Shown here in pieces: positions 2,133 to 63,893 of a stretch of DNA of 64,000 nt (positions are counted from its first letter, which is position 1; every line of letters starts with the position of its first letter). Under the pieces are notes generated by a model, which was given only the letters and a program-made list of their open reading frames with translations, made no database searches and had not been told where the DNA came from. Made by a program: the position numbers and the translations under genes. The stretch is taken from assembly GCA_964016885.1 (NCBI GenBank), contig OZ024744.1:131564001-131628000 (forward strand), written 5' to 3'. Origin of the DNA: Eledone cirrhosa (taxonomy: Eukaryota).

Positions 2133-2558
2133 AACCCCAACTTCACTCAACCCCACCTTAACTCAACCCCAACTTAACTTAACCCCAACTTCACTCAACC
2201 CCAACTTAACTTAACCCCAACTTCACTCAACCCCAACTTAACTCAACCCCAACTTAACTTAACCCCAACTTAACTTAACCCTAACTTAACTTAACCCCGA
2301 CTTAACTTAACTTCGACTTAACTTAATCCCAACTTAACTTAACCCCAACTTAACTTAACCCCAACTTAACTTAACCACAAATTAACTTAACCCCAACTTA
2401 AATTAACCCCAACTTAAATTAACCCCAACTTAACTTAACCCCAACTTAACTTAACCCCAACTTAACTCACACCCAACTTAACTTACCCCCAACTTAACTT
2501 AACCCCAACTTAGACTTAACCCAAACTTTACTTAACCCCAACTTAACTTAACCCCAAA
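2133..2558 (-). repeat. Inverted satellite island 1 (426 bp, type A)
   Basis: Switches to (AACCCCAACTTAACTT)n at GGGGTT|AACCCC and returns at CCCCAAATTCGGGG. Markers AATCCC, TTAGACTT and CCAAACTTTAC are shared with island 17. Confidence 0.97.
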
Positions 2559-5500
2559 TTCGGGGTTAAGTTAAGTTGGGGTTAAGTTAAGTTAGGCTTA
2601 ACTTAAGTTGGGGTTAAGTTAAGTTGGGGGTAAGTTAAGTTCTGGGTAAGTTAAGTTGGGGTTAAGTTAAGTTGGGGTTAAGTTGGGGTTAATTTAAGTT
2701 AGGGTTAAGTTAAGTTGGGGTTGAGTTAAGTTGGGGTTAAGTTAAGTTGGGGTTAAGTTAAGTTGGGGTCAAGTTAAGTTGGGGTTAAAATTAAGTTGGG
2801 GTTAAGTCAAGTTGGGGTTAAGTTAAGTTGGGTTTAATTTAGTTGGGGTTAAGTTAAGTTGGGGCTAAGTTAAGTTGAGGCTAAGTTAAGTTGGGGCTAA
2901 GTTAAGTTGGGGTTAAGTTAAGTTGGGGTTAAGTTAAGTTGGGGTTAATTTAAATTGGGGTTAAGTTAACTTTGTGGTTAAGTTAAGTTGGGGTTAAGTT
3001 AAGTTGGGGCTAAGTTAAGTTGGGGTTAAGTTAAGTTGGGGTTAAGTTAAGTTGGGGTTGAGTTAAGTTGGGGTTGAGTGAAGTTGGGGTTAATTTAAGT
3101 TGGGGTTAAATTAAGTTGGCGTTAAGTTAAGTTGGGTTTGAGTTAAGTTGGGGTTGAGTTAATTTAGGGTTAAGTTAAGTTGGGGTTAAGTTAAGTTGGG
3201 TTTAAGTTAAGTTGGGGTTAAATTAAGTTGGGGTTAAATTAAGTTGGGGTTAAGTTAAGTTGGGGTTTAGTTAAGTTGGAGTTAAGTTAAGTTGGGGTTA
3301 ATTTAAGTTGGGGTTAAGTTAAGTTGGTGTTAAGTTAAGTGGTGGTTATGTTAAGTTGGGGTTAAGTTAAGTTGGGGTTAATTTAAATTGGGGTTAAGTT
3401 AACTTTGTGGTTAAGTTAAGTTGGGGTTAAGTTAAGTTGGGGTTAATTTAAGTTGGGGTTGAGTTAAGTTGGGGTTGAGTTAATTTAGGGTTAAGTTAAG
3501 TTGGGCTTAAGTTAAGTTGGGTTTAAGTTAAGTTGGGGTTAAATTAAGTTGGGGTTAAGTTAAGTTGGGGGTAAGTTAAGTTGGGGGCAAGTTAAGTTGG
3601 GGTTAAGTTAAGTTGGGGTTAAATTAAGTTGGGGTTAAGTTTAGTTGGTGTTAAGTTAAGTTGGGGTTTATTTAAGTTGGGGTTAATTAAGTTGGGGTTA
3701 AGTTAAGTTGGGGTTAAGTTAAGTTGGGGTTAATTTAAGTTGGGGTTGAGTTAAGTTGGGGTTAAGTTAAGTTGGGTTTATATTAAGTTGGGGTTAAGTT
3801 AAGTTGGGGTTAAGTTAAGTTGGGGTTCAGTTAAGTTGCGGTTAAGTTAAGTTGGGGTTAAGTTAAGTTGGGGTTAAGTTAAGTTGGGGTTAAGTTAAGT
3901 TGGTGTTAAGTTAAGTTGGGGCTGAGTTAAGTTGGGGCTGAGTTAAGTTGGAGTTAAGTTAAGTTGGGGTTGAGTTAAGTTGGGGTTAAGTTAAGTTGGG
4001 GTTAAGTTAAGTTGGGGTTAAGTTAAGTTGGGTTTAAGTTAAGTTGGGGTTTAGTTAAGTTGGGGTTCAGTTAAGTTGGGGTTAAGTTAAGTTTGGGTTA
4101 AGTTGGGGTTAAATTAATTTGGGGTTAAGTTAAGTTGGGGTTAATTTAAGTTGGGGTTAAGTTAAGTTGCGGGTAATTTAAGTTGGGATTAAGTTAAGTT
4201 GGGGTTAAGTTAAGATGGGGTTAAGTTAAGTTGGGGTTACGTTAAGTTGGGGTTAAGTTAAATTGGGGGTAAGTTAAGTAGGGGGTAAGTTAAGATGGGG
4301 TTAAGTTAAGTTGGGGTTAAGTTAAGTTAGGGTTAAGTTAAGTTGGGGTTGAGTTCAGTTGGGGTTAAGTTAAGTTGGGGTTATGTTAAGTTGGGGTTAA
4401 GTTAAGTTGCGGTTAAGTTAAGTTGGGGTTAAGTTAAGTTGGGGTTAAGTTAAATTGGGGTTAAGTTAAGTTGGGGTTGAGTTAAGTTGGGGTTAAGTTA
4501 AGTTGGGGTTATGTTAAGTTGGGGTTAAGTTAAGTTGCGGTTAAGTTAAGTTGGGGTTAAGTTGGGGTTAAGTTAAGTTGGTGTTAAGTTAAGTTGGTGT
4601 TAAGTTAAGTTGGGGTTAAGTTAAGTTGGGGTTAATTTAAATTGGGGTTAAGTTAACTTTGTGGTTAAGTTAAGTTGGGGCTAAATTAAGTTGGGGCTAA
4701 GTTAAGTTGGGTCTAAGTTAAGTTGGGGTTCAGTTAAGTTGGGGTTAAGTTAAGTTTGGGTTAAGTTGGGTTTAAGTTAAGTTGGGGTTAAGTTAAGTTG
4801 GGGTTAATTTAAGTTGGGGTTAAGTTAAGTTGGGGTTAAGTTAAGTGGTGGTTATGTTAAGTTGAGGTTAAGTTAAGTTGGGGTTAATTTAAATTGGGGT
4901 TAAGTTAACTTTGTGGTTAAGTTAAGTTGGGGTTAAGTTAAGTTGGGGTTAAGTTAAGTTGGGGTTCAGTTAAGTTGCGGTTAAGTTAAGTTGGGGTTAA
5001 GTTAAGTTGGGGTCAAGTTAAGCTGGGGTTAAGTTAAGTTGGGGTTAAGTTAAGTTGGTTAGTTAAGTTGAGTTTAAGTTAAGTTGGGGTTAATTTAAGT
5101 TGGGTTTAAGTTAAGTTGGGGTTAAGTTAAGTTGGGGTTAAGTTAAGTTGGGGTTCAGTTAAGTTGGGGTTAAGTTAAGTTGGGGTTAAGATGGGGTTAA
5201 ATTAAGTTGGGGTTAAGTTAAGTTGGGGTTAAGTTAAGTTGGGGTTGAGTCGGGGTTAAGTTAAGTCGGGGTTATGTTAAGTTAGGGTTAAGTTAAGTTT
5301 GAGTTAAGTTAAGTTGGGGTGAGTTAAGTTGGGGTTGAGTTAAATTGGGGTGGAGTTAAGTTGGGGTTGAGTTAAGTTGGTGTTGAGTTAAGTTGGGGTT
5401 AAGTTAAGTTGCAGTTAAGTTAAGTTGAGGTTAAGTTAAGTAGGGGTTAAGTTAAGTTGGGGTTAAGTTAAGTTGGGGCTAAGTTAAGTTGGGGCTAAGT

Positions 5501-6267
5501 TAAGTTGGGGCTAAGTTAAGTTGGGGTTCAGTTAAGTTGGGGTTAAGTTAAGTTTGGGTTAAGTTGGGGTTAAATTAAGTTGGGGTTAAGTTAAGTTGGG
5601 GTTTAGTTAAGTTGGGGTTAAGTTAAGTTGGGGTTAATTTAAGTTGGGGTTAATTTAAGTTGGGGTCAACTTAAATTGGGGTTAAGTTAAGTTGGGTTTA
5701 AGTTAAGTTGGGGTTAAGTTAAGTGGGGGTTAAGTTAAGTTGGGGTTAATTTAAGTTGGTGTTAAGTTAAGTTGGGGCTAAGTTAAGTTGGGGCTAAGTT
5801 AAGTTGGGGTTAAGTTAAGTTGGGGTTAAGTTAAGGTGGGGTTAATTTAAGTTGGGGTCAACTTAAATTGGGGTTAAGTTAAGTTGGGTTTAAGTTAAGT
5901 TGGGGTTAAGTTAAGTGGGGGTTAAGTTAAGTTGGGGTTAATTTAAGTTGGTGTTAAGTTAAGTTGGGGTTAAGTTAAGTTGGGGTTAAGTTAAGTTGGT
6001 TAGTTAAGTTGAGTTTAAGTTAAGTTGGGGTTAATTTAAGTTGGGGTTAAGTTAAGTTGGGGTTAAGTTAAGTTGGGGTTAAGTTAAGTTGGGGTTAAGT
6101 TAATTTGGGGTTCAGTTAAGTTGGGGTTAAGTCAAGTTGGGGTTAAGTTGGGGTTAAATTAATTTGGGGTTAAGTTAAGTTGGGGTTAAGTTAAGTTGGG
6201 GTTAAGTTAAGTTGGGGTTAAGTTAAGTTGGGGTTAAGTTAATTTGTGGTTAAGTTAAGTTGGGGTT

Positions 6268-6692
6268 AACCCCACCTTCACTCAACCCCACCTTAATTCA
6301 ACCCCAACTTAACTTAACCCCAACTTCACTCAACCCCAACTTAACTTAACCCCAACTTCACTCAACCCCAACTTAACTCAACCCCAACTTAACTTAACCC
6401 CAACTTAACTTAACGCTAACTTAACTGAACCCCGACTTAACTTAACTTCGACTTAACTTAACCCCAACTTAAATTAACCCCAACTTAACTTAACCCCAAC
6501 TTAACTTAACCACAAATTAACTTAACCCCAACTTAAATTAACCCCAACTTAAATTAACCCCAACTTAACTTAACCCCAACTTAACTTAACCCCAACTTAA
6601 CTCACACCCAACTTAACTTACCCCCAACTTAACTTAACCCCAACTTGACTTAACCCCAACTTAACTTAACCCCAACTTAACTTAACCCCAAA
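6268..6692 (-). repeat. Inverted satellite island 2 (425 bp, type A)
   Basis: Same junctions. Markers CCCCACCTTCAC, AATTCAAC, AACGCTAAC and ACTGAACC are shared with island 3. Confidence 0.97.
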
Positions 6693-9600
6693 TTCGGGGT
6701 TAAGTTAAGTTGGGGTTAAGTTAAGTTAGGCTTAACTTAAGTTGGGGTTAAGTTAAGTTGGGGGTAAGTTAATTTCTGGGTAAGTTAAGTTGGGGTTAAG
6801 TTAAGTTGGGGTTAAGTTGGGGTTAAGTTAAGTTAGGGTTAAGTTAAGTTGGGGTTGAGTTAAGTTGGGGTTAAGTTAAGTTGGGGTTAAGTTAAGTTGG
6901 GGTAAAGTTAAGTTGGGTTTAAGTTAAGTTGGGGTTAAATTAAGTTGGGGTTAAATTAAGTTGGGGTTAAGTTAAGTTGGGGTTAAGTTAAGTTGGGGTT
7001 AAATTAAGTTGGGGTTACGTTAAGTTGGTGTTAAGTTAAGTTGGGGTTAATTTAAGTTGGGGTTAATTAAGTTAGGGTTCAGTTAAGTTGGGGTTAAGTT
7101 AAGTTGGGGTTAATTTAAGTTGGGGTTGAGTTAAGTTAGGGTTAAGTTAATTTGGGGTTATATTAAGTTGGGGTTAAGTTAAGGTGGGGTTAAGTTAAGT
7201 TGGGGTTCAGTTAAGTTGCGGTTAAGTTAAGTTGGGGTTAAGTTAAGTTGGGGTTAAGTTAAGTTGGGGTTAAGTTAAGTTGGGGTCAAGTTAAGTTGGG
7301 GTTAAGTTAAGTTGGGGTTAAGTTAAGTTGGTTAGTTAAGTTGAGTTTAAGTTAAGTTGGGGTTAATTTAAGTTGGGGTTAAGTTAAGTTGGTGTTAAGT
7401 TAAGTTGGGGCTAAGTTAAGTTGGGGCTGAGTTAAGTTGGGGTTAAGTTAAGTTGGGGTTGAGTTAAGTTGGGGTTAAGTTAAGTTGGGGTTAAGTTAAG
7501 TTGGGGTTTAGTTAAGTTGGGGTTCAGTTAAGTTGGGGTTAAGTTAAGTTGGGGTTAAGATGGGGTTAAATTAAGTTGGGGTTAAGTTAAGTTGGGGCTA
7601 AGTTAAGTTGGGGCTGAGTTAAGTTGGGGTTAAGTTAAGTTGGGGTTCAGTTAAGTCGGGGTTAAGTTAAGTCGGGGTTAAGTTAAGTTAGGGTTAAGTT
7701 AAGTTGGAGTTAAGTTAAGTTCTGGGTAAGTTAAGTTGGGGTTAAGTTAAGTTGGGGTTAAGATGGGGTTAAATTAAGTTGGGGTTAAGTTAAGTTGGGG
7801 TTAAGTTAAGTTGGGGTTAAGTTAAGTTGGGGTTAAGTTAAGTCGGGGTTAAGTTAAGTCGGGGTTAAGTTAAGTTGGGGTTAAGTTAAGTTGGGGTTAA
7901 GTTAAGTTAGGCTTAACTTAAGTTGGGCTTAAGTTAAGTTGGGGGTAAGTTAAGTTCTGGGTAAGTTAATTTGGGGTTAAGTTAAGTTGGATTTAAGTTG
8001 GGGTTAAGTTAAGTTAGGGTTAAGTTAAGTTGGGGTTGAGTTAAGTTGGGGTTAAGTTAAGTTGGGGTTAAGTTAAGTTGGGGTCAAGTTAAGTTGGGGT
8101 TAAAATTAAGTTGGGGTTAAGTCAAGTTGGGGTTAAGTTAAGTTGGGGTTAATTTAGTTGGGGTTAAGTTAAGTTGGGGCTAAGATAAGTTGGGGCTAAG
8201 TTAAGTTGGGGCTAAGTTAAGTTGGGGTTAAGTTAAGTTAGGGTTAAGTTAAGTTGGGGTTAATTTAAATTGGGGTTAAGTTAACTTTGTGGTTAAGTTA
8301 AGTTGGGGTTAAGTTAAGTTGGGGTTAAGTTAAGTTGGGGTTGAGTTAAGTTGGGGTTGAGTGAAGTTGGGGTTAAGTTACGTTGGGGTTAAGTTAAGAT
8401 GGCGTTAAGTTAAGTTGGGGTTGAGTTAAGTTGGGGTTGAGTTAATTTAGGGTTAAGTTAAGTTGGGGTAAAGTTAAGTTGGGTTTAAGTTAAGTTGGGG
8501 TTAAATCAAGTTGGGGTTAAGTTAAGTTGGTGTTAATTTAGTTGGGGTTAAGTTAAGTTGGGGCTAAGTTAAGTTGGGGTTAAGTTAAGTTGGGGTTAAG
8601 TTAAGTTGGTTAGTTAAGTTGAGTTTAAGTTAAGTTGGGGTTAATTTAAGTTGGGGTTAAGTTAAGTTGGTGTTAAGTTAAGTTGGGGCTAAGTTAAGTT
8701 GGGGCTGAGTTAAGTTGGGGTTAAGTTAAGTTGGGGTTGAGTTAAGTTGGGGTTAAGTTAAGTTGGGGTTAAGTTAAGTTGGGGTTTAGTTAAGTTGGGG
8801 TTCAGTTAAGTTGGGGTTAAGTTAAGTTGGGGTTAAGATGGGGTTAAATTAAGTTGGGGTTAAGTTAAGTTGGGGCTGAGTTAAGTTGGGGTTAAGTTAA
8901 GTTGGGGTTCAGTTAAGTCGGGGTTAAGTTAAGTCGGGGTTAAGTTAAGTTAGGGTTAAGTTAAGTTGGAGTTAAGTTAAGTTCTGGGTAAGTTAAGTTG
9001 GGGTTAAGTTAAGTTGGGGTTAAGATGGGGTTAAATTAAGTTGGGGTTAAGTTAAGTTGGGGTTAAGTTAAGTTGGGGTTAAGTTAAGTTGGGGTTAAGT
9101 TAAGTCGGGGTTAAGTTAAGTCGGGGTTAAGTTAAGTTGGGGTTAAGTTAAGTTGGGGTTAAGTTAAGTTAGGCTTAACTTAAGTTGGGCTTAAGTTAAG
9201 TTGGGGGTAAGTTAAGTTCTGGGTAAGTTAATTTGGGGTTAAGTTAAGTTGGGGTTAAGTTGGGGTTAAGTTAAGTTAGGGTTAAGTTAAGTTGGGGTTG
9301 AGTTAAGTTGGGGTTAAGTTAAGTTGGGGTTAAGTTAAGTTGGGGTCAAGTTAAGTTGGGGTTAAAATTAAGTTGGGGTTAAGTCAAGTTGGGGTTAAGT
9401 TAAGTTGGGGTTAATTTAGTTGGGGTTAAGTTAAGTTGGGGCTAAGATAAGTTGGGGCTAAGTTAAGTTGGGGCTAAGTTAAGTTGGGGTTAAGTTAAGT
9501 TAGGGTTAAGTTAAGTTGGGGTTAATTTAAATTGGGGTTAAGTTAACTTTGTGGTTAAGTTAAGTTGGGGTTAAGTTAAGTTGGGGTTAAGTTAAGTTGG

Positions 9601-10140
9601 GGTTGAGTTAAGTTGGGGTTGAGTGAAGTTGGGGTTAAGTTAAGTTGGGGTTAATTTAAGTTGGGGTTAAGTTAAGTCGGGCTTAAGTTAAGTTGGGGTT
9701 GAGTTAAGTTGGGGTTAATTTAAGTTGGGGCTAAGTTAATTTGTGGTTAAGTTAAGTTGGGGTTAAGTTAAGTTGGGGTTAAGTTAAGTTGGGGTTGAGT
9801 TAAGTTGGGGTTGAGTTAATTTAGGGTTAAGTTAAGTTGGGGTTAAGTTAAGTTGGGGTTAAGTTAAGTTGGTTAGTTAAGTTGAGTTTAAGTTAAGTTG
9901 GGGTTAATTTAAGTTGGGGTTAAGTTAAGTTGGGGTTAAGTTAAGTTGGGGTTAAGTTAAGTTGGGGTTAAGTTAATTTGGGGTTCAGTTAAGTTGGGGT
10001 TAAGTCAAGTTGGGGTTAAGTTGGGGTTAAATTAATTTGGGGTTAAGTTAAGTTGGGGTTAAGTTAAGTTGGGGTTAAGTTAAGTTGGGGTTAAGTTAAG
10101 TTGGGGTTAAGTTAATTTGTGGTTAAGTTAAGTTGGGGTT

Positions 10141-10565
10141 AACCCCACCTTCACTCAACCCCACCTTAATTCAACCCCAACTTAACTTAACCCCAACTTC
10201 ACTCAACCCCAACTTAACTTAACCCCAACTTCACTCAACCCCAACTTAACTCAACCCCAACTTAACTTAACCCCAACTTAACTTAACGCTAACTTAACTG
10301 AACCCCGACTTAACTTAACTTCGACTTAACTTAACCCCAACTTAAATTAACCCCAACTTAACTTAACCCCAACTTAACTTAACCACAAATTAACTTAACC
10401 CCAACTTAAATTAACCCCAACTTAAATTAACCCCAACTTAACTTAACCCCAACTTAACTTAACCCCAACTTAACTCACACCCAACTTAACTTACCCCCAA
10501 CTTAACTTAACCCCAACTTGACTTAACCCCAACTTAACTTAACCCCAACTTAACTTAACCCCAAA
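10141..10565 (-). repeat. Inverted satellite island 3 (425 bp, type A)
   Basis: Appears identical to island 2 at offset 3873. Confidence 0.97.
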
Positions 10566-13500
10566 TTCGGGGTTAAGTTAAGTTGGGGTTAAGTTAAGTT
10601 AGGCTTAACTTAAGTTGGGGTTAAGTTAAGTTGGGGGTAAGTTAATTTCTGGGTAAGTTAAGTTGGGGTTAAGTTAAGTTGGGGTTAAGTTGGGGTTAAG
10701 TTAAGTTAGGGTTAAGTTAAGTTGGGGTTGAGTTAAGTTGGGGTTAAGTTAAGTTGGGGTTAAGTTAAGTTGGGGTAAAGTTAAGTTGGGTTTAAGTTAA
10801 GTTGGGGTTAAATTAAGTTGGGGTTAAATTAAGTTGGGGTTAAGTTAAGTTGGGGTTAAGTTAAGTTGGGGTTAAATTAAGTTGGGGTTACGTTAAGTTG
10901 GTGTTAAGTTAAGTTGGGGTTAATTTAAGTTGGGGTTAATTAAGTTAGGGTTCAGTTAAGTTGGGGTTAAGTTAAGTTGGGGTTAATTTAAGTTGGGGTT
11001 GAGTTAAGTTAGGGTTAAGTTAATTTGGGGTTATATTAAGTTGGGGTTAAGTTAAGGTGGGGTTAAGTTAAGTTGGGGTTCAGTTAAGTTGCGGTTAAGT
11101 TAAGTTGGGGTTAAGTTAAGTTGGGGTTAAGTTAAGTTGGGGTTAAGTTAAGTTGGGGTCAAGTTAAGTTGGGGTTAAGTTAAGTTGGGGTTAAGTTAAG
11201 TTGGTTAGTTAAGTTGAGTTTAAGTTAAGTTGGGGTTAATTTAAGTTGGGGTTAAGTTAAGTTGGTGTTAAGTTAAGTTGGGGCTAAGTTAAGTTGGGGC
11301 TGAGTTAAGTTGGGGTTAAGTTAAGTTGGGGTTGAGTTAAGTTGGGGTTAAGTTAAGTTGGGGTTAAGTTAAGTTGGGGTTTAGTTAAGTTGGGGTTCAG
11401 TTAAGTTGGGGTTAAGTTAAGTTGGGGTTAAGATGGGGTTAAATTAAGTTGGGGTTAAGTTAAGTTGGGGCTAAGTTAAGTTGGGGCTGAGTTAAGTTGG
11501 GGTTAAGTTAAGTTGGGGTTCAGTTAAGTCGGGGTTAAGTTAAGTCGGGGTTAAGTTAAGTTAGGGTTAAGTTAAGTTGGAGTTAAGTTAAGTTCTGGGT
11601 AAGTTAAGTTGGGGTTAAGTTAAGTTGGGGTTAAGATGGGGTTAAATTAAGTTGGGGTTAAGTTAAGTTGGGGTTAAGTTAAGTTGGGGTTAAGTTAAGT
11701 TGGGGTTAAGTTAAGTCGGGGTTAAGTTAAGTCGGGGTTAAGTTAAGTTGGGGTTAAGTTAAGTTGGGGTTAAGTTAAGTTAGGCTTAACTTAAGTTGGG
11801 CTTAAGTTAAGTTGGGGGTAAGTTAAGTTCTGGGTAAGTTAATTTGGGGTTAAGTTAAGTTGGGGTTAAGTTGGGGTTAAGTTAAGTTAGGGTTAAGTTA
11901 AGTTGGGGTTGAGTTAAGTTGGGGTTAAGTTAAGTTGGGGTTAAGTTAAGTTGGGGTCAAGTTAAGTTGGGGTTAAAATTAAGTTGGGGTTAAGTCAAGT
12001 TGGGGTTAAGTTAAGTTGGGGTTAATTTAGTTGGGGTTAAGTTAAGTTGGGGCTAAGATAAGTTGGGGCTAAGTTAAGTTGGGGCTAAGTTAAGTTGGGG
12101 TTAAGTTAAGTTAGGGTTAAGTTAAGTTGGGGTTAATTTAAATTGGGGTTAAGTTAACTTTGTGGTTAAGTTAAGTTGGGGTTAAGTTAAGTTGGGGTTA
12201 AGTTAAGTTGGGGTTGAGTTAAGTTGGGGTTGAGTGAAGTTGGGGTTAAGTTACGTTGGGGTTAAGTTAAGATGGCGTTAAGTTAAGTTGGGGTTGAGTT
12301 AAGTTGGGGTTGAGTTAATTTAGGGTTAAGTTAAGTTGGGGTAAAGTTAAGTTGGGTTTAAGTTAAGTTGGGGTTAAATCAAGTTGGGGTTAAGTTAAGT
12401 TGGTGTTAATTTAGTTGGGGTTAAGTTAAGTTGGGGCTAAGTTAAGTTGGGGTTAAGTTAAGTTGGGGTTAAGTTAAGTTGGTTAGTTAAGTTGAGTTTA
12501 AGTTAAGTTGGGGTTAATTTAAGTTGGGGTTAAGTTAAGTTGGTGTTAAGTTAAGTTGGGGCTAAGTTAAGTTGGGGCTGAGTTAAGTTGGGGTTAAGTT
12601 AAGTTGGGGTTGAGTTAAGTTGGGGTTAAGTTAAGTTGGGGTTAAGTTAAGTTGGGGTTTAGTTAAGTTGGGGTTCAGTTAAGTTGGGGTTAAGTTAAGT
12701 TGGGGTTAAGATGGGGTTAAATTAAGTTGGGGTTAAGTTAAGTTGGGGCTGAGTTAAGTTGGGGTTAAGTTAAGTTGGGGTTCAGTTAAGTCGGGGTTAA
12801 GTTAAGTCGGGGTTAAGTTAAGTTAGGGTTAAGTTAAGTTGGAGTTAAGTTAAGTTCTGGGTAAGTTAAGTTGGGGTTAAGTTAAGTTGGGGTTAAGATG
12901 GGGTTAAATTAAGTTGGGGTTAAGTTAAGTTGGGGTTAAGTTAAGTTGGGGTTAAGTTAAGTTGGGGTTAAGTTAAGTCGGGGTTAAGTTAAGTCGGGGT
13001 TAAGTTAAGTTGGGGTTAAGTTAAGTTGGGGTTAAGTTAAGTTAGGCTTAACTTAAGTTGGGCTTAAGTTAAGTTGGGGGTAAGTTAAGTTCTGGGTAAG
13101 TTAATTTGGGGTTAAGTTAAGTTGGGGTTAAGTTGGGGTTAAGTTAAGTTAGGGTTAAGTTAAGTTGGGGTTGAGTTAAGTTGGGGTTAAGTTAAGTTGG
13201 GGTTAAGTTAAGTTGGGGTCAAGTTAAGTTGGGGTTAAAATTAAGTTGGGGTTAAGTCAAGTTGGGGTTAAGTTAAGTTGGGGTTAATTTAGTTGGGGTT
13301 AAGTTAAGTTGGGGCTAAGATAAGTTGGGGCTAAGTTAAGTTGGGGCTAAGTTAAGTTGGGGTTAAGTTAAGTTAGGGTTAAGTTAAGTTGGGGTTAATT
13401 TAAATTGGGGTTAAGTTAACTTTGTGGTTAAGTTAAGTTGGGGTTAAGTTAAGTTGGGGTTAAGTTAAGTTGGGGTTGAGTTAAGTTGGGGTTGAGTGAA

Positions 13501-46700: not shown

Positions 46701-46742
46701 AGTTGGGGTTAAGTTAATTTGTGGTTAAGTTATGTTGGGGTT

Positions 46743-53061: not shown

Positions 53062-56000
53062 TTCGGGGTTAAGTTAAGTTGGGGTTAAGTTAAGTTAGGC
53101 TTAACTTAAGTTGGGGTTAAGTTAAGTTGGGGGTAAGTTAAGTTCTGGGTAAGTTAAGTTGGGGTTAAGTTAAGTTGGGGTTAAGTTGGGGTTAATTTAA
53201 GTTAGGGTTAAGTTAAGTTGGGGTTGAGTTAAGTTGGGGTTAAGTTAAGTTGGGGTTAAGTTAAGTTGGGGTCAAGTTAAGTTGGGGTTAAAATTAAGTT
53301 GGGGTTAAGTCAAGTTGGGGTTAAGTTAAGTTGGGGTTAATTTAGTTGGGGTTAAGTTAAGTTGGGGCTAAGTTAAGTTGGGGCTAAGTTAAGTTGGGGC
53401 TAAGTTAAGTTGGGGTTAAGTTAAGTTGGGGTTAAGTTAAGTTGGGGTTAATTTAAATTGGGGTTAAGTTAACTTTGTGGTTAAGTTAAGTTGGGGTTAA
53501 GTTAAGTTGGGGCTAAGTTAAGTTGGGGTTAAGTTAAGTTGGGGTTAAGTTAAGTTGGGGTTGAGTTAAGTTGGGGTTGAGTGAAGTTGGGGTTAAGTTA
53601 AGTTGGGGTTAAGTTAAGTTGGCGTTAAGTTAAGTTGGGGTTGAGTTAAGTTGGGGTTGAGTTAATTTAGGGTTAAGTTAAGTTGGGGTTAAGTTAAGTT
53701 GGGTTTAAGTTAAGTTGGGGTTAAATTAAGTTGGGGTTAAATTAAGTTGGGGTTAAGTTAAGTTGGGGGTAAGTTAAGTTGGGGGTAAGTTAAGTTGGGG
53801 TTCAGTTAAGTTGGGGTTAAGTTAAGTTTGGGTTAAGTTGGGGTTAAATTAAGTTGGGGTTAAGTTAAGTTGGGGTTTAGTTAAGTTGGAGTTAAGTTAA
53901 GTTGGGGTTAATTTAAGTTGGGGTTAAGTTAAGTTGGTGTTAAGTTAAGTGGTGGTTATGTTAAGTTGGGGTTAAGTTAAGTTGGGGTTAATTTAAATTG
54001 GGGTTAAGTTAACTTTGTGGTTAAGTTAAGTTGGGGTTAAGTTAAGTTGGGGTTAAGTTAAGTTGGGGTTGAGTTAAGTTGGGGTTGAGTTAATTTAGGG
54101 TTAAGTTAAGTTGGGCTTAAGTTAAGTTGGGTTTAAGTTAAGTTGGGGTTAAATTAAGTTGGGGTTAAGTTAAGTTGGGGGTAAGTTAAGTTGGGGGCAA
54201 GTTAAGTTGGGGTTAAGTTAAGTTGGGGTTAAATTAAGTTGGGGTTAAGTTTAGTTGGTGTTAAGTTAAGTTGGGGTTTATTTAAGTTGGGGTTAATTAA
54301 GTTGGGGTTAAGTTAAGTTGGGGTTAAGTTAAGTTGGGGTTAATTTAAGTTGGGGTTGAGTTAAGTTGGGGTTAAGTTAAGTTGGGTTTATATTAAGTTG
54401 GGGTTAAGTTAAGTTGGGGTTAAGTTAAGTTGGGGTTCAGTTAAGTTGCGGTTAAGTTAAGTTGGGGTTAAGTTAAGTTGGGGTTAAGTTAAGTTGGGGT
54501 TAAGTTAAGTTGGGGTTAAGTTAAGTTGGTGTTAAGTTAAGTTGGGGCTGAGTTAAGTTGGGGTTAAGTTAAGTTGGGGTTGAGTTAAGTTGGGGTTAAG
54601 TTAAGTTGGGGTTAAGTTAAGTTGGGGTTAAGTTAAGTTGGGGTTAAGTTAAGTTGGGGTTTAGTTAAGTTGGGGTTCAGTTAAGTTGGGGTTAAGTTAA
54701 GTTTGGGTTAAGTTGGGGTTAAATTAATTTGGGGTTAAGTTAAGTTGCGGTTTAGTTTAGTTGGGGTTAAGTTAAGTTGGGGTTAATTTAAGTTGGGGTT
54801 AAGTTAAGTTGCGGGTAATTTAAGTTGGGGTTAAGTTAAGTTGGGGTTAAGTTAAGATGGGGTTAAGTTAAGTTGGGGTTAAGTTAAGTTGGGGTTAAGT
54901 TAAATTGGGGGTAAGTTAAGTTGGGGGTAAGTTAAGTTGGGGGTAAGTTAAGTTGGGGTTAAGTTAAGTTGCGGTTAAGTTAAGTTGGGGTTAAGTTAAG
55001 TTGGGGTTAAGTTAAATTGGGGTTAAGTAAAGTTGGGGTTGAGTTAAGTTGGGGTTAAGTTAAGTTGGGGTTATGTTAAGTTGGGGTTAAGTTAAGTTGC
55101 GGTTAAGTTAAGTTGGGGTTAAGTTGGGGTTAAGTTAAGTGGTGGTTATGTTAAGTTGGGGTTAAGTTAAGTTGGGGTTAATTTAAATTGGGGTTAAGTT
55201 AACTTTGTGGTTAAGTTAAGTTGGGGCTAAATTAAGTTGGGGCTAAGTTAAGTTGGGTCTAAGTTAAGTTGGGGTTCAGTTAAGTTTGGGTTAAGTTAAG
55301 TTTGGGTTAAGTTGGGGCTAAATTAAGTTGGGGTTAAGTTAACTTGGGGTTTAGTTAAGTTGGGGTTAAGTTAAGTTGGGGTTAATTTAAGTTGGGGTTA
55401 AGTTAAGTTGGGGTTAAGTTAAGTGGTGGTTATGTTAAGTTGGGGTTAAGTTAAGTTGGGGTTAATTTAAATTGGGGTTAAGTTAACTTTGTGGTTAAGT
55501 TAAGTTGGGGTTAAGTTAAGTTGGGGTTAAGTTAAGTTGGGGTTCAGTTAAGTTGCGGTTAAGTTAAGTTGGGGTTAAGTTAAGTTGGGGTCAAGTTAAG
55601 CTGGGGTTAAGTTAAGTTGGGGTTAAGTTAAGTTGGTTAGTTAAGTTGAGTTTAAGTTAAGTTGGGGTTAATTTAAGTTGGGTTTAAGTTAAGTTGGGGT
55701 TAAGTTAAGTTGGGGTTAAGTTAAGTTGGGGTTCAGTTAAGTTGGGGTTAAGTTAAGTTGGGGTTAAGATGGGGTTAAATTAAGTTGGGGTTAAGTTAAG
55801 TTGGGGTTAAGTTAAGTTGGGGTTAAGTTAAGTCGGGGTTAAGTTAAGTCGGGGTTAAGTTAAGTTAGGGTTAAGTTAAGTTTGAGTTAAGTTAAGTTGG
55901 GGTTGAGTTAAGTTGGGGTTGAGTTAAATTGGGGTGGAGTTAAGTTGGGGTTGAGTTAAGTTGGTGTTGAGTTAAGTTGGGGTTAAGTTAAGTTGGGGTT

Positions 56001-57879
56001 AAGTTAAGTTGCAGTTAAGTTAAGTTGAGGTTAAGTTAAGTAGGGGTTAAGTTAAGTTGGGGTTAAGTTAAGTTGGGGCTAAGTTAAGTTGGGGCTAAGT
56101 TAAGTTGGGGCTAAGTTAAGTTGGGGTTCAGTTAAGTTGGGGTTAAGTTAAGTTTGGGTTAAGTTGGGGTTAAATTAAGTTGGCGTTAAGTTAAGTTGGG
56201 GTTTAGTTAAGTTGGGGTTAAGTTAAGTTGGGGTTAATTTAAGTTGGGGTTAAGTTAAGTTGGTGTTAAGTTAAGTGGTGGTTATGTTAAGTTGGGGTTA
56301 AGTTAAGTTGGGGTTAATTTAAATTGGGGTTAAGTTAACTTTGTGGTTAAGTTAAGTTGGGGTTAAGTTAAGTTGGGGTTAAGTTAAGTTGGGGTTTAGT
56401 TAAGTTGGGGTTGAGTGAAGTTGGGGTTAAGTTAAGTTGGGGTTAATTTATGTTGGGGTTAAGTTAAGTCGGGGTTAAGTTAAGTTGGGGTTGAGTTAAG
56501 TTGGGGTTAATTTAAGTTGGGGCTAAGTTAATTTGTGGTTAAGTTAAGTTGGGGTTAAGTTAAGTTGGGGTTAAGTTAAGTTGGGGTTGAGTTAAGTTGG
56601 GGTTGAGTTAATTTAGGGTTAAGTTAAGTTGGGGTTAAGTTAAGTTGGGTTTAAGTTAAGTTGGGGTTAAATTAAGTTGGGGTTAAGTTAAGTTGGGGGT
56701 AAGTTAAGTTGGGGGCAAGTTAAGTTGGGGTTAAGTTAAGTTGGGGTTAAATTAAGTTGGGGTTAAGTTTACTTGGTGTTAAGTTAAGTTGGGGTTTATT
56801 TAAGTTGGGGTCAACTTAAATTGGGGTTAAGTTAAATTGGGGGTAAGTTAAGTTGGGGTTACGTTAAGTTGGGGTTAAGTTAAGTTGGGGTTAAGCTAAG
56901 TTGGGGTCAAGTTAAGTTGGGGTTTAAATTAAGTTGGGGTTAAGTCAAGTTGGGGTTAAGTTAAGTTGGGGTTAATTTAGTTGGGGTTAAGTTAAGTTGG
57001 GGCTAAGTTAAGTTGGGGCTAAGTTAAGTTGGGGCTAAGTTAAGTTGGGGTTAAGTTAAGTTGGGGTTAAGTTAAGGTGGGGTTAATTTAAGTTGGGTTA
57101 ACTTAAATTGGGGTTAAGTTAAGTTGGGGTTAAGTTAAGTTGGGGTTAAGTTCAGTTGGGGTTAAGTTAAGTTGGTGTTAAGTTAAGTTGGGGCTAAGTT
57201 AAGTTGGGGCTGAGTTAAGTTGGGGCTGAGTTAAGTTGGGGTTAAGTTAAGTTGGGGTTGAGTTAAGTTGCGGTTAAGTTAAGTTGGCGTTAAGTTAAGT
57301 TGGGGTTAAGTTAAGTTGGGGTTAAGTTAAGTTGGGGTTGAGTTAAGTTGGGGTTAAGTTAAGTTGGGGTTCAGTTAAGTTGGGGTTAAGTTAAGTTGGG
57401 GTTAAGATGGGGTTAAATTAAGTTGGGGTTAAGTTAAGTTGGGGTTAAGTTTAGTTGGGGTTGAGTTAAGTTGGGGTTAAGTTAAGTCGGGGTTACGTTA
57501 AGTCGGGGTTAAGTTAAGTTAGGGTTAAGTTATTAAGTTGGAGTTAAGTTAAGTTGGGGTTGAGTTAAGTTGGGGTTGAGTTAAATTGGGGTTAAGTTAA
57601 GTTGGGGCTAAGTTAAGTTGGGGTTAAGTTAAGTTGGGGTTAAGTTAAGTTGCAGTTAAGTTAAGTTGAGGTTAAGTTAAGTTGGGGTTAAGTTAAGTTG
57701 GGGTTAAGTTAAGTTGGGGCTAAGTTAAGTTGGGGCTAAGTTAAGTTGGGGCTAAGTTAAGTTGGGGTTCAGTTAAGTTGGGTTTAAGTTAAGTTTGGGT
57801 TAAGTTGGGGTTAAATTAAGTTGGGGTTAAGTTAAGTTGGGGTTTAGTTAAGTTGGAGTTAAGTTAAGTTGGGGTTAAT

Positions 57880-60800
57880 TTAAGTTGGGGTTAAGTTAAG
57901 TTGGTGTTAAGTTAAGTGGTGGTTATGTTAAGTTGGGGTTAAGTTAAGTTGGGGTTAATTTAAATTGGGGTTAAGTTAACTTTGTGGTTAAGTTAAGTTG
58001 GGGTTAAGTTAAGTTGGGGTTGAGTTAAGTTGGGGTTGAGTGAAGTTGGGGTTAAGTTAAGTTGGGGTTAATTTAAGTTGGGGTTAAGTTAAGTCGGGGT
58101 TAAGTTAAGTTGGGGTTGAGTTAGGTTGGGGTTAATTTAAGTTGGGGCTAAGTTAATTTGTGGTTAAGTTAAGTTGGGGTTAAGTTGGGGTTAAGTTAAG
58201 TTGGGGTTGAGTTAAGGTGGGGTTGAGTTAATTTAGGGTTAAGTTAAGTTGGGGTTAAGTTAAGTTGGGTTTAAGTTAAGTTGGGGCTAAGTTAAGTTGG
58301 GGTTAAGTTAAGTTGGGGTTAAGTTAAGTTGGGGTTAAGTTAAGTTGGGGTTAATTTAAATTGGGGTTAAGTTAACTTTGTGGTTAAGTTAAGTTGGGGT
58401 TAAGTTAAGTTGGGGTAAGTTAAGTTGGGGTTAAGTTAAGTTGGGGTTAAGTTAAGTTGGGGTTGAGTTAAGTTGGGGTTGAGTGAAGTTGGGGTTAAGT
58501 TAAGTTGGGGTTAAGTTAAGTTGGCGTTAAGTTAAGTTGGGGTTGAGTTAAGTTGGGGTTGAGTTAATTTAGGGTTAAGTTAAGTTGGGGTTAAGTTAAG
58601 TTGGGTTTAATTTAAGTTGGGGTTAAATTAAGTTGGGGTTAAATTAAGTTGGGGTTAAGTTAAGTTGGGGGTAAGTTAAGTTGGGGTTAAGTTAAGTTGG
58701 GGTTCAGTTAAGTTGGGGTTAAGTTAAGTTTGGGTTAAGTTGGGGTTAAATTAAGTTGGGGTTAAGTTAAGTTGGGGTTTAGTTAAGTTGAAGTTAAGTT
58801 AAGTTGGGGTTAATTTAAGTTGGGGTTAAGTTAAGTTGGTGTTAAGTTAAGTGGTGGTTATGTTAAGTTGGGGTTAAGTTAAGTTGGGGTTAATTTAAAT
58901 TGGGGTTAAGTTAACTTTGTGGTTAAGTTAAGTTGGGGTTAAGTTAAGTTGGGGTTAAGTTAAGTTGGGGTTAAGTTAAGTTGGGGTTGAGTTAAGTTGG
59001 GGTTGAGTTAATTTAGGGTTAAGTTAAGTTGGGCTTAAGTTAAGTTGGGTTTAAGTTAAGTTGGGGTTAAATTAAGTTGGGGTTAAGTTAAGTTGGGGGT
59101 AAGTTAAGTTGGGGGCAAGTTAAGTTGGGGTTAAGTTAAGTTGGGGTTAAATTAAGTTGGGGTTAAGTTTAGTTGGTGTTAAGTTAAGTTGGGGTTTATT
59201 TAAGTTGGGGTTAATTAAGTTGGGGTTAAGTTAAGTTGGGGTTAAGTTAAGTTGGGGTTAATTTAAGTTGGGGTTGAGTTAAGTTGGGGTTAAGTTAAGT
59301 TGGGTTTATATTAAGTTGGGGTTAAGTTAAGTTGGGGTTAAGTTAAGTTGGGGTTCAGTTAAGTTGCGGTTAAGTTAAGTTGGGGTTAAGTTAAGTTGGG
59401 GTTAAGTTAAGTTGGGGTTAAGTTAAGTTGGTGTTAAGTTAAGTTGGGGCTGAGTTAAGTTGGGGCTGAGTTAAGTTGGGGTTAAGTTAAGTTGGGGTTG
59501 AGTTAAGTTGGGGTTAAGTTAAGTTGGGGTTAAGTTAAGTTGGGGTTAAGTTAAGTTGGGTTTAAGTTAAGTTGGGGTTTAGTTAAGTTGGGGTTCAGTT
59601 AAGTTGGGGTTAAGTTAAGTTTGGGTTAAGTTGGGGTTAAATTAATTTGGGGTTAAGTTAAGTTGGGGTTTAGTTTAGTTGGGGTTAAGTTAAGTTGGGG
59701 TTAATTTAAGTTGGGGTTAAGTTAAGTTGCGGGTAATTTAAGTTGGGATTAAGTTAAGTTGGGGTTAAGTTAAGATGGGGTTAAGTTAAGTTGGGGTTAA
59801 GTTAAGTTGGGGTTAAGTTAAATTGGGGGTAAGTTAAGTTGGGGGTAAGTTAAGTTGGGGGCAAGTTAAGTTGGGGTTCAGTTAAGTTGGGGTTAAATTA
59901 AGTTGGGGTTAAGTTTAGTTGGTGTTAAGTTAAGTTGGGGTTTATTTAAGTTGGGGTTAATTAAGTTGGGGTTAAGTTAAGTTGGGGTTAAGTTAAGTTG
60001 GGGTTTAGTTAAGTTGGGGTTCAGTTAAGTTGGGGTTAAGTTAAGTTTGGGTTAAGTTGGGGTTAAATTAATTTGGGGTTAAGTTAAGTTGGGGTTAAGT
60101 TAAGTTGGTGTTAAGTTAAGTGGTGGTTATGTTAAGTTGGGGTTAAGTTAAGTTGGGGTTAATTTAAATTGGGGTTAAGTTAACTTTGTGGTTAAGTTAA
60201 GTTGGGGTTAAGTTAAGTTGGGGTTGAGTTAAGTTGGGGTTGAGTGAAGTTGGGGTTAAGTTAAGTTGGGGTTAATTTAAGTTGGGGTTAAGTTAAGTCG
60301 GGGTTAAGTTAAGTTGGGGTTGAGTTAGGTTGGGGTTAATTTAAGTTGGGGCTAAGTTAATTTGTGGTTAAGTTAAGTTGGGGTTAAGTTGGGGTTAAGT
60401 TAAGTTGGGGTTGAGTTAAGGTGGGGTTGAGTTAATTTAGGGTTAAGTTAAGTTGGGGTTAAGTTAAGTTGGGTTTAAGTTAAGTTGGGGCTAAGTTAAG
60501 TTGGGGTTAAGTTAAGTTGGGGTTAAGTTAAGTTGGGGTTAAGTTAAGTTGGGGTTAATTTAAATTGGGGTTAAGTTAACTTTGTGGTTAAGTTAAGTTG
60601 GGGTTAAGTTAAGTTGGGGTAAGTTAAGTTGGGGTTAAGTTAAGTTGGGGTTAAGTTAAGTTGGGGTTGAGTTAAGTTGGGGTTGAGTGAAGTTGGGGTT
60701 AAGTTAAGTTGGGGTTAAGTTAAGTTGGCGTTAAGTTAAGTTGGGGTTGAGTTAAGTTGGGGTTAAGTTAATTTAGGGTTAAGTTAAGTTGGGGTTAAGT

Positions 60801-62290
60801 TAAGTTGGGTTTAAGTTAAGTTGGGGTTAAATTAAGTTGCGGTTAAATTAAGTTGGGGTTAAGTTAAGTTGGGGGTAAGTTAAGTTGGGGTTAAGTTAAG
60901 TTGGGGTTCAGTTAAGTTGGGGTTAAGTTAAGTTTGGGTTAAGTTGGGGTTAAATTAAGTTGGGGTTAAGTTAAGTTGGGGTTTAGTTAAGTTGGAGTTA
61001 AGTTAAGTTGGGGTTAATTTAAGTTGGGGTTAAGTTAAGTTGGTGTTAAGTTAAGTGGTGGTTATGTTAAGTTGGGGTTAAGTTAAGTTGGGGTTAATTT
61101 AAATTGGGGTTAAGTTAACTTTGTGGTTAAGTTAAGTTGGGGTTAAGTTAAGTTGGGGTTAAGTTAAGTTGGGGTTAAGTTAAGTTGGGGTTGAGTTAAG
61201 TTGGGGTTGAGTTAATTTAGGGTTAAGTTAAGTTGGGCTTAAGTTAAGTTGGGTTTAAGTTAAGTTGGGGTTAAATTAAGTTGGGGTTAAGTTAAGTTGG
61301 GGGTAAGTTAAGTTGGGGGCAAGTTAAGTTGGGGTTAAGTTAAGTTGGGGTTAAATTAAGTTGGGGTTAAGTTTAGTTGGTGTTAAGTTAAGTTGGGGTT
61401 TATTTAAGTTGGGGTTAATTAAGTTGGGGTTAAGTTAAGTTGGGGTTAAGTTAAGTTGGGGTTAATTTAAGTTGGGGTTGAGTTAAGTTGGGGTTAAGTT
61501 AAGTTGGGTTTATATTAAGTTGGGGTTAAGTTAAGTTGGGGTTAAGTTAAGTTGGGGTTCAGTTAAGTTGCGGTTAAGTTAAGTTGGGGTTAAGTTAAGT
61601 TGGGGTTAAGTTAAGTTGGGGTTAAGTTAAGTTGGTGTTAAGTTAAGTTGGGGCTGAGTTAAGTTGGGGCTGAGTTAAGTTGGGGTTAAGTTAAGTTGGG
61701 GTTGAGTTAAGTTGGGGTTAAGTTAAGTTGGGGTTAAGTTAAGTTGGGGTTAAGTTAAGTTGGGTTTAAGTTAAGTTGGGGTTTAGTTAAGTTGGGGTTC
61801 AGTTAAGTTGGGGTTAAGTTAAGTTTGGGTTAAGTTGGGGTTAAATTAATTTGGGGTTAAGTTAAGTTGGGGTTTAGTTTAGTTGGGGTTAAGTTAAGTT
61901 GGGGTTAATTTAAGTTGGGGTTAAGTTAAGTTGCGGGTAATTTAAGTTGGGATTAAGTTAAGTTGGGGTTAAGTTAAGATGGGGTTAAGTTAAGTTGGGG
62001 TTAAGTTAAGTTGGGGTTAAGTTAAATTGGGGGTAAGTTAAGTTGGGGGTAAGTTAAGTTGGGGGCAAGTTAAGTTGGGGTTCAGTTAAGTTGGGGTTAA
62101 ATTAAGTTGGGGTTAAGTTTAGTTGGTGTTAAGTTAAGTTGGGGTTTATTTAAGTTGGGGTTAATTAAGTTGGGGTTAAGTTAAGTTGGGGTTAAGTTAA
62201 GTTGGGGTTTAGTTAAGTTGGGGTTCAGTTAAGTTGGGGTTAAGTTAAGTTTGGGTTAAGTTGGGGTTAAATTAATTTGGGGTTAAGTTA
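57880..62290 (+). repeat. Higher-order tandem duplication, period 2204 bp (2 copies), without inverted island
   Basis: Marker offsets TTAGGTT 58123/60327 and GGGGGCAAG 59116/61320 are both 2204. Boundaries are approximate. Confidence 0.85.
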
Positions 62291-63467
62291 AGTTGGGGTT
62301 TAGTTTAGTTGGGGTTAAGTTAAGTTGGGGTTAATTTAAGTTGGGGTTAATTTAAGTTGCGGGTAATTTAAGTTGGGGTTAAGTTAAGTTGGGGTTAAGT
62401 TAGTTGGGGTTAAGTTAAGTTGGGGTTAAGTTAAGTTGGGGTTAAGTTATGTTGGGGGTAAGTTAAGTTGGGGGTAAGTTAAGTTGGGGTTAAGTTAAGT
62501 TGGGGTTAAGTTAAGTTAGGGTTAAGTTAAGTTGGGGTTAAGTTAAGTTGGGGTTAAGTTAAATTGGGGTTAAGTTAAGTTGGGGTTGAGTTAAGTTGGG
62601 GTTAAGTTAAGTTGGGGTTATGTTAAGTTGGGGTTAAGTTAAGTTGCGGTTAAGTTAAGTTGGGGTTAAGTTGGGGTTAAGTTAAGTGGTGGTTATGTTA
62701 AGTTGGGGTTAAGTTAAGTTGGGGTTAATTTAAATTGGGGTTAAGTTAACTTTGTGGTTAAGTTAAGTTGGGGCTAAATTAAGTTGGGGCCAAGTTAAGT
62801 TGGGGATAAGTTAAGTTGGGGTTCAGTTAAGTTGGGGTTAAGTTAAGTTTGGGTTAAGTTGGGGTTAAATTAAGTTGGGGTTAAGTTAAGTTGGGGTTTA
62901 GTTAAGTTGGGGTTAAGTTAAGTTGGGGTTAATTTAAGTTGGGGTTAAGTTAAGTGGTGGTTATGTTAAGTTGGGGTTAAGTTAAGTTGGGGTTAATTTA
63001 AATTGGGGTTAAGTTAACTTTGTGGTTAAGTTAAGTTGGGGTTAAGTTAAGTTGGGGTTAAGTTAAGTTGGGGTTCAGTTAAGTTGCGGTTAAGTTAAGT
63101 TGCGGTTAAGTTAAGTTGGGGTTAAGTTAAGTTGGGGTTAAGTTAAGTTGGGGTCAAGTTAAGCTGGGGTTAAGTTAAGTTGGGGTTAAGTTAAGTTGGT
63201 TAGTTAAGTTGAGTTTAAGTTAAGCTGGGGTTAATTTAAGTTGGGTTTAAGTTAAGTTGGGGTTAAGTTAAGTTGGGGTTAAGTTAAGTTGGGGTTAAGT
63301 TAATTTGGGGTTCAGTTAAGTTGGGGTTAAGTCAAGTTGGGGTTAAGTTGGGGTTAAATTAATTTGGGGTTAAGTTAAGTTGGGGTTAAGTTAAGTTGGG
63401 GTTAAGTTAAGTTGGGGTTAAGTTAAGTTGGGGTTAAGTTAATTTGTGGTTAAGTTAAGTTGGGGTT

Positions 63468-63893
63468 AACCCCAACTTCACTCAACCCCACCTTAACTCA
63501 ACCCCAACTTAACTTAACCCCAACTTCACTGAACCCCAACTTAACTTAACCCCAACTTCACTCAACCCCAACTTAACTCAACCCCAACTTAACTTAACCC
63601 CAACTTAACTTAACCCAAACTTAACTTAACCCCGACTTAACTTAACTTCGACTTAACTTAATCCCAACTTAACTTAACCCAAACTTAACTTAACCCCAAC
63701 TTAACTTAACCACAAATTAACTTAACCCCAACTTAAATTAACCCCAACTTAAATTAACCCCAACTTAACTTAACCCCAACTTAACTTAACCCCAACTTAA
63801 CTCACACCCAACTTAACTTACCCCCAACTTAACTTAACCCCAACTTAGACTTAACCCAAACTTTACTTAACCCCAACTTAACTTAACCCCAAA
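63468..63893 (-). repeat. Inverted satellite island 17 (426 bp, type A)
   Basis: Shares AATCCC, TTAGACTT and CCAAACTTTAC with island 1. Confidence 0.97.

What the first reader, a model, noticed from the sequence alone, without database searches (positions are those of the whole stretch)
2133..63893. One ~425-bp inverted island with fixed junctions is repeated 17 times through the satellite
Seen: strand polarity flips for ~26.5 monomers at 2133, 6268, 10141, 14659, 18125, 21213, 24632, 27721, 32180, 35344, 38333, 41974, 43278, 46743, 49438, 52685 and 63468. Each copy has the same breakpoints and the same internal order of variants (CTTCACTC x3, CCTAAC, CCGAC, TTCGAC, CCACAAATT, CTCACACCC, TACCCCC), apart from whole-monomer deletions. 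Start-to-start spacing is mostly 2.7-4.5 kb, with outliers of 1304 and 10783 bp, while the forward sequence between islands is reshuffled. Inference: a single inversion was amplified as the landmark of a variable higher-order repeat. Each island can pair with either flank, so the array carries periodic long fold-back/cruciform-competent sites, and read-through transcription would give ~400-bp hairpin dsRNA. That could be a built-in siRNA source for heterochromatin or a non-B-DNA centromere/recombination signal. The function is hypothesis only.
Basis: partly seen in the sequence, partly recalled or inferred. Interest (0 to 1): 0.8.

Follow-up and report, generated by a model that had tools for sequence, protein, structure and literature searches.

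The report
One old satellite inversion, copied hundreds-fold
A short flipped patch in a 16-base repeat array is real and recurs hundreds of times along one chromosome end, most likely because it arose once by a copying slip and was then carried along as the array duplicated itself, with no sign so far that it has a job.

Summary
There are 17 of 17 reversed islands at the stated places, and all share one right junction. They belong to one homologous family: 197 reversed segments in 664 kb around the window, and roughly 700-900 junctions over C28:124.6-135 Mb. Island length runs from 144 to 492 bp, mostly in whole-monomer steps. A short-read unitig spans the left junction.

Fixed junctions and even spacing need no function. 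A neutral duplication/deletion model in which only same-orientation monomers exchange gave spacing as even as observed in 55 of 150 runs. About 3 Mb of the same satellite shows no island junction.

The origin is likely a replication template switch. An independent 3-copy island on C18 mirrors its own upstream flank, and all 4 distinct head-to-head junctions found sit on the monomer's self-complementary TTAA. Hairpins are predicted, but no RNA or chromatin data exist.

Conserved, amplified inversion breakpoints in satellites are published (human HSat3B5, Tribolium TfSat01). Verdict: new member of a known kind, with an unusually readable birth-and-spread record. Interest 0.33.

The parts
1..64000 (+). 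16-bp satellite (consensus AAGTTAAGTTGGGGTT), about 4000 copies, G-rich strand on +; patchwork of recurring variant blocks
2133..2561 (-). inverted island 1 (429 bp); left junction is a palindrome centred at 2132/2133, right junction a 6-nt-loop quasi-palindrome at 2552-2565
6268..6695 (-). island 2 (428 bp)
10141..10568 (-). island 3 (428 bp), identical to island 2
14659..15085 (-). island 4 (427 bp); left junction spanned by a short-read unitig
18125..18551 (-). island 5 (427 bp)
21213..21639 (-). island 6 (427 bp)
24632..25058 (-). island 7 (427 bp)
27721..28147 (-). island 8 (427 bp)
32180..32606 (-). island 9 (427 bp)
35344..35707 (-). island 10 (364 bp, internal deletion)
38333..38759 (-). 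island 11 (427 bp)
41974..42369 (-). island 12 (396 bp)
43278..43704 (-). island 13 (427 bp)
46743..47090 (-). island 14 (348 bp)
49441..49865 (-). island 15 (425 bp; small loss at the left junction)
52685..53064 (-). island 16 (380 bp)
63468..63896 (-). island 17 (429 bp)

Best explanation
The islands are homologous copies of one short inverted segment of the 16-bp satellite, likely born once by a replication template switch at the monomer's self-complementary TTAA and likely spread passively by the array's own duplications. Step 1 (inferred from a younger, independent case on C18): the polymerase jumps to the opposite strand at a TTAA, copies a short run of monomers backwards and returns, leaving two hairpin-shaped junctions. 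Step 2 (duplications shown, passivity inferred): 1-90 kb duplications and deletions copy the island with its flanks. Step 3 (modelled): such events join only monomers of the same orientation, so forward blocks are cut and shuffled at any monomer, while the island is mostly copied whole, lost whole or resized by whole monomers. Its junctions therefore look fixed and its spacing looks even. Step 4 (one clear case in 664 kb): islands occasionally pair with forward monomers and seed larger flips without making new junctions.
For: One origin: islands sampled from 124.6 to 135.0 Mb share the variant core, both junction geometries and mostly the downstream marker monomer; 145 of 195 lengths are 12 modulo 16. 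Duplication: 66% of 160-mers in 664 kb have an earlier exact copy; offsets 70 and 88 kb stand out. Sheltering: median homologous run 37-46 monomers from island anchors against 3-31 from 7 forward landmarks. In all 6 simulation settings islands had longer runs and lower spacing CV than forward markers, and 55 of 150 accepted runs had CV at or below 0.67. Birth: the 144-bp C18 island (3 copies) has both junctions on TTAA and mirrors its upstream flank, whose marker dimer occurs forward only at those 3 places in 90 kb. 4 of 4 distinct head-to-head junctions are centred on GTT|AAC. Dispensable in places: no left-junction match listed between 124.69 and 130.25 Mb, and 0 switches in 4 of 4 10-kb samples there.
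Against: The main island no longer mirrors its flank, so its birth mechanism is borrowed from the C18 case. Its right junction is not on TTAA. The two new C28 junctions do not mirror beyond the first monomer or so, so TTAA joining is not always fold-back. Spacing is more even than random placement (CV 0.67 against 0.87, 1st percentile 0.75) and than 11 of 11 unlinked forward landmarks (0.88-1.91). Two simulation settings rarely reached 0.67 (4 of 25, 2 of 25). The simulation has an invented size law, no point mutation, and was conditioned on island density. No functional data exist either way.
Confidence: 0.72

Rival explanations
1. The islands are kept by selection as hairpin-RNA (siRNA) sources or cruciform sites that mark the chromatin of this array.
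For: Predicted fold-back is strong: -588 and -595 kcal/mol as RNA for 862 nt across either junction, against -218 for pure forward array; perfect runs of 20-46 bp. Spacing is more even than random. A similar role is hypothesised for Tribolium inversion points.
Against: Any inversion in a tandem array folds this way. Left-arm mismatch is 9.4 per 64 bp against a null median of 9; common variants cut the left perfect arm to 3-4 bp in 78 of 197. About 3 Mb of the array and the sampled C3 array show no islands. The neutral model suffices.
Confidence: 0.12
2. The islands have no benefit for the host but raise local duplication, because hairpins stall forks or break, so island-bearing blocks out-amplify plain ones.
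For: One event reached hundreds of copies over about 10 Mb. Islands bound a secondary inversion and one end of a large reversed block.
Against: The independent C18 island has only 3 copies. Island-free stretches are as long as island-bearing ones. Island density does not rise along the 664 kb: mean spacing goes from about 2.0-2.4 kb to 5.2 kb.
Confidence: 0.1
3. Island plus downstream flank is a non-autonomous foldback or piggyBac-like element that inserts at TTAA sites (TTAA targeting recalled from memory).
For: Junctions sit on TTAA; island and downstream flank form inverted arms; the downstream flank is somewhat better conserved than the upstream one (11 against 8 monomers).
Against: The same upstream marker block precedes islands of most sub-families, which independent insertions would not share. 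There is no foreign sequence, and listed junction matches lie only in the C28 arrays.
Confidence: 0.03
4. The islands are an assembly or sequencing artefact (fold-back reads, collapsed or expanded repeats).
For: The array has scaffold gaps, and some large orientation changes abut them. RAD reads of three other individuals show almost no depth at the left junction.
Against: Copies carry nested, lineage-specific point variants (107 distinct of 197). A unitig spans the left junction at depth 251. The RAD reads are largely chimeric (96-97% run on unlike) and so say little.
Confidence: 0.03

Closest known systems
Tribolium freemani TfSat01/TfSat03 macro-dyad arrays (bioRxiv 10.1101/2024.12.02.626372 = PMC12581902; seen: 12 passages and one discussion section)
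   Same: Orientation switches fall into a few conserved junction types made only of truncated monomers, amplified to many near-identical copies; hairpin and centromere roles are hypothesised.
   Different: There the inverted subarrays are kb-long, tend to dyad symmetry and are shared by 3-7 chromosomes. Here a short island makes up 11% of the array, has one origin, and was found on one contig only.
Human HSat3B5 (chr9) and beta-satellite arrays, nested tandem repeats (bioRxiv 10.1101/2021.07.12.452052; seen: 9 passages)
   Same: Simple-repeat-derived satellite with multi-kb nested repeats and over 200 inversion breakpoints.
   Different: The passages seen count breakpoints but do not say whether they descend from one event. 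Here common descent and a young independent case are traced.
Tribolium brevicornis, T. madens MAD2 and T. audax TAUD2 satellites (seen only as cited)
   Same: An inversion became part of the amplified repeat unit.
   Different: Fixed 0.7-1.4 kb units of two inverted subunits; here the unit has no fixed length (461-12,699 bp between islands).
Short-range template switching (PMC5453318, PMC7954356, 10.1101/2021.04.15.439925; seen: search listing and abstract starts only)
   Same: Creates a reverse-complement copy of nearby sequence and hence a hairpin, as in the C18 island.
   Different: Described there for mutation clusters and RNA stems; amplification inside a satellite was not in the text I saw.

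Membership tests
Nested tandem repeat with amplified inversion breakpoints (HSat3B5-like) | Short ancestral monomer with diverged copies | tested here: met
   16-bp period, 87% matches; 35% of monomers are consensus
Nested tandem repeat with amplified inversion breakpoints (HSat3B5-like) | Multi-kb repeat units nested over the monomer | tested here: met
   Nearest exact 160-mer copies lie mostly 1-80 kb apart, with no single period
Nested tandem repeat with amplified inversion breakpoints (HSat3B5-like) | Hundreds of strand switches in one array | tested here: met
   197 reversed segments in 664 kb
Nested tandem repeat with amplified inversion breakpoints (HSat3B5-like) | Pericentromeric position | not testable with these tools
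   Distal 12 Mb of a 136.5-Mb contig; no centromere data
Tribolium-type macro-dyad satellite | Conserved junctions of truncated monomers without foreign sequence | tested here: met
Tribolium-type macro-dyad satellite | Kb-long direct and inverted subarrays tending to dyad symmetry | tested here: not met
   11% reversed, islands 144-492 bp
Tribolium-type macro-dyad satellite | Same junction on non-homologous chromosomes | tested here: not met
   First 100 listed matches of each junction pattern all on C28; none on C3 or C18, which list earlier; unlisted later contigs not seen
Classical higher-order repeat (alpha-satellite type) | Fixed number and order of monomers per unit | tested here: not met
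   58-658 monomers between islands in the window
Template-switch inverted duplication | Inverted segment is a copy of adjacent sequence | tested here: inconclusive
   Met for the C18 island; not visible for the window's family, whose variants do occur in forward blocks
Template-switch inverted duplication | Microhomology at the switch points | tested here: met
   5 of 6 distinct junctions join TTAA to TTAA; the main right junction does not
Foldback/piggyBac-like element | Independent insertions with unrelated flanks | tested here: not met
   Upstream marker block shared across most sub-families
Hairpin-RNA (endo-siRNA) locus | Read-through transcript and small RNAs from the arms | not testable with these tools
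   No RNA run of this organism among 21 listed; no Rfam match in the window

The most novel reading that the evidence does not exclude
This satellite breeds its own hairpins. Template switches at the monomer's TTAA repeatedly create short inverted islands, and the family that reached hundreds of copies is now a selected, evenly spaced source of hairpin RNA or cruciform DNA that sets the chromatin of a multi-megabase domain. Island-free stretches of the same repeat give a built-in control.
Probability: 0.12. Interest if true: 0.72.

Novelty: new member of a known kind. Interest (0 to 1): 0.33.

Why it matters
Conserved inversion points in satellites have been read as signs of function (Tribolium). 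This array shows that a neutral rule, exchange only between same-orientation monomers, can give fixed junctions and fairly even spacing. It also holds a young and an old island side by side, so birth and spread can be read from sequence. Island-bearing and island-free megabases of the same 16-mer lie next to each other, which makes the dyad-symmetry and hairpin-RNA ideas directly testable with one ChIP or small-RNA data set.

Tried and rejected
RAD-seq reads of three other individuals (one of them again): 96-99% chimeric and almost no depth at the junctions, so they say nothing on presence in the population.

Run X4 (another organism) holds monomers, but no listed piece crosses the right junction.

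Palindrome perfection: 3 of 197 right junctions are perfect palindromes, but they share flanks and look like one lineage, and other junction changes lower symmetry; rejected as evidence. Extra conservation at junctions: the column count is biased by my filter and by indels; not used. A pre-inversion allele was not found in the island-free samples. The first simulation timed out.

Papers: no description of this monomer (3 unrelated hits). Searches for inverted monomers or amplified strand switches returned 0 or only the Tribolium paper. A cephalopod guess, recalled from a SINE-like flank, gave nothing relevant; the taxon is not established. Most subscription papers and all bioRxiv supplements were out of reach; the supplements of the human centromere paper may say whether HSat3B5 breakpoints share an origin.

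Earlier findings: none by place or words; two unrelated low-share hits by sequence.
Full report
Setting. The window is C28:131,564,001-131,628,000 of a 3.0-Gb genome; the contig is 136.5 Mb long. It is pure 16-bp satellite, about 4000 copies at 87% matches. The same satellite occupies most of C28 127.0-135.2 Mb, a block at 124.6 Mb, and arrays on C3 (184.8 Mb of 378.9 Mb) and C18. The taxon was not determined; a histone 3' stem-loop nearby points to an animal.

Observation. All 17 share the right junction, a quasi-palindrome with a 6-nt loop. Thirteen islands are 425-429 bp and four are 348-396 bp. A 105-nt unitig of run X1 spans the left junction with no difference at depth 251. Pieces of X1 and X3 cross the right junction with fewer than 31 nt a side. 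These runs are one sample and may be the assembly's own, so they argue against an artefact but are not population evidence.

Extent and common descent. In 664 kb of contiguous sequence there are 197 reversed segments, 11% of the bases, in 107 distinct versions. Of these, 195 are islands of 144-492 bp and 2 are parts of one secondary inversion. The right junction has the loop AAATTC in 151, AAAGTC in 31, AAAGCC in 10 and GAATTC in 3, and is read in reverse in 2. 145 of 195 lengths are 12 modulo 16, so change is mostly by whole monomers. Islands sampled at 124.6, 130.25, 130.5-131.1, 132.0-132.8, 133.0, 133.35 and 135.0 Mb have the same variant core and junction shapes. Genome-wide exact patterns give 131 long-type right junctions, 413 short-type and 824 forward / 692 reverse left junctions, symmetric ones counted on both strands: roughly 700-900 copies, as lower bounds. 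The first 100 listed matches of each are all on C28. One event, not 17, is the simplest reading.

How it spread. 66% of 160-mers have an earlier exact copy, mostly 1-80 kb away; 70-kb and 88-kb offsets tie the window to sequence upstream. The forward DNA is a patchwork of recurring variant blocks, 58-658 monomers between islands, so there is no fixed higher-order unit. Random pairs of islands stay homologous for a median 37-46 monomers, against 3-31 for 7 forward landmarks. Spacing has CV 0.67, more even than random placement (0.87; 1st percentile 0.75) and than 11 of 11 unlinked forward landmarks (0.88-1.91; two island-linked ones gave 0.67 and 0.74). That is the best sequence argument for selection, so I simulated it. 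Duplications and deletions were allowed only between monomers of the same orientation, in six settings, keeping 25 runs each out of 66-94 tried (at least 40 islands, mean spacing 100-500 monomers). CV was at or below 0.67 in 12, 8, 4, 2, 16 and 13 of 25, or 55 of 150. In all six settings islands had lower median CV and longer runs than forward markers of like copy number, and median length stayed at 27-35 monomers. The model is crude (invented size law, no point mutation), but it shows that fixed junctions and even spacing follow from orientation alone.

How it was born. A search for head-to-head junctions with other spacings found 52 sites. Of the 50 listed, 46 are the standard junction with a nearby variant and 4 are centred on the monomer's other TTAA: three on C18 and one at C28 131,964,580. 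Another such junction lies at 132,859,240. The C18 sites are 3 copies of an independent 144-bp island with both junctions on TTAA. In 2 of 3 copies it mirrors five monomers of its upstream flank, offset by two monomers and with one extra; the third shares the two-monomer marker. That marker occurs forward only at these 3 places in 90 kb. This is the footprint of an inverted duplication by template switching (mechanism known from PMC5453318 and related papers; listing and abstract starts seen). In all, 4 of 4 distinct head-to-head junctions and 5 of 6 junctions join TTAA to TTAA; by my arithmetic a random join does so about 8% of the time. Against a single story: the two new C28 junctions do not mirror beyond about one monomer, the main right junction is off TTAA, and the main island does not mirror its present flank, though its variants occur in forward blocks. 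Its birth by template switch is therefore inferred.

Consequences. At 131,323,655-131,326,141 a 2.5-kb stretch with a whole island is flipped; it begins inside one island and ends inside another, with no new junction. A reversed block of about 560 kb (interior only sampled) ends at an island junction at 133.355 Mb but starts at a scaffold gap. Islands thus serve as occasional hinges.

Function. Single-stranded, island and flank are predicted to fold (-588 and -595 kcal/mol RNA, -366 and -371 DNA, against -218 and -58 for plain array); arms are 88-91% identical with perfect runs of 20-46 bp in 16 islands tested. Any inversion in a tandem array does this. The left arms are not tuned: 9.4 mismatches per 64 bp against a null median of 9; the right arms have 7.8. 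No left-junction match is listed between 124.69 and 130.25 Mb, and 4 of 4 10-kb samples there, 46 kb at 133.36 Mb and 24 kb on C3 show no switch. No RNA run of this organism was offered and Rfam finds nothing in the window. The siRNA and centromere ideas remain untested.

Comparison. Tribolium freemani arrays have conserved, amplified inversion segments of truncated monomers with the same functional hypotheses. Human HSat3B5 and beta satellite carry over 200 inversion breakpoints in nested repeats. This array works like those, but fails the Tribolium tests of kb-long dyad subarrays and sharing across chromosomes, and it is not a fixed-unit higher-order repeat. Searches found no description of this monomer or of a one-origin island traced in this way, within a library that lacks most subscription papers.

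Verdict. Real, larger than reported, and best explained as a neutral passenger (0.72). New member of a known kind; interest 0.33, mostly for the young-and-old pair, the TTAA rule and the built-in control domain.

Noticed in passing
G000:C18:10,129,119; 10,132,219; 10,188,795 (L124, L125, L129): Independent 144-bp inverted island, 3 copies, both junctions perfect palindromes on TTAA, mirroring its upstream flank.
   Followed up: yes
G000:C28:131,394,072 and two further copies (first in L026): 390-bp island variant whose interior carries four marker monomers in the mirror order of the usual upstream flank; possible conversion between island and flank. Exact register not checked.
   Followed up: partly
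G000:C28:131,323,655-131,326,141 (L058-L059): 2.5-kb secondary inversion bounded by islands, holding one island in forward orientation.
   Followed up: yes
G000:C28:131,384,956; 131,396,904; 131,482,940: Right junction is a perfect 14-bp palindrome in 3 related copies; 2 of the 3 have deletions next to it.
   Followed up: partly
L088:1839-1883: Histone 3' UTR stem-loop (Rfam RF00032, 36.6 bits) just after a scaffold gap beside the satellite.
   Followed up: no
L088:3080-9260: About 1.6-kb tandem unit with long internal inverted repeats: a second dyad-rich satellite adjoining the array. RAD reads join its sequence to the 16-mer.
   Followed up: no
L075, L076, L095, L106, L109: An 18-22% GC satellite interleaved with the 16-mer at 132.1-132.8 Mb, forming composite units.
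   Followed up: no
L083:1-9600: A longer, more diverged repeat with GGGG runs and TAAG motifs directly upstream of the 124.6-Mb block; possibly related to the 16-mer.
   Followed up: no
L080:650-4000: The contig ends in a roughly 26-bp C-rich repeat with many indels, not a short canonical telomere motif.
   Followed up: no
L133:1740-2300: Degenerate AACCT-type and then C-rich simple repeat right after a gap; possibly a low-quality read end or a simpler relative of the monomer.
   Followed up: no
window:1-64000: G4Hunter-type mean score about +0.98 on forward array and -1.03 in an island: the G-run strand is borderline for quadruplex and flips at each island.
   Followed up: partly
L139 (C28:126.0 Mb) and L102 (C28:135.8 Mb): Two further unrelated tandem repeats flank the array; the distal 12 Mb sampled is nearly all satellite.
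   Followed up: no
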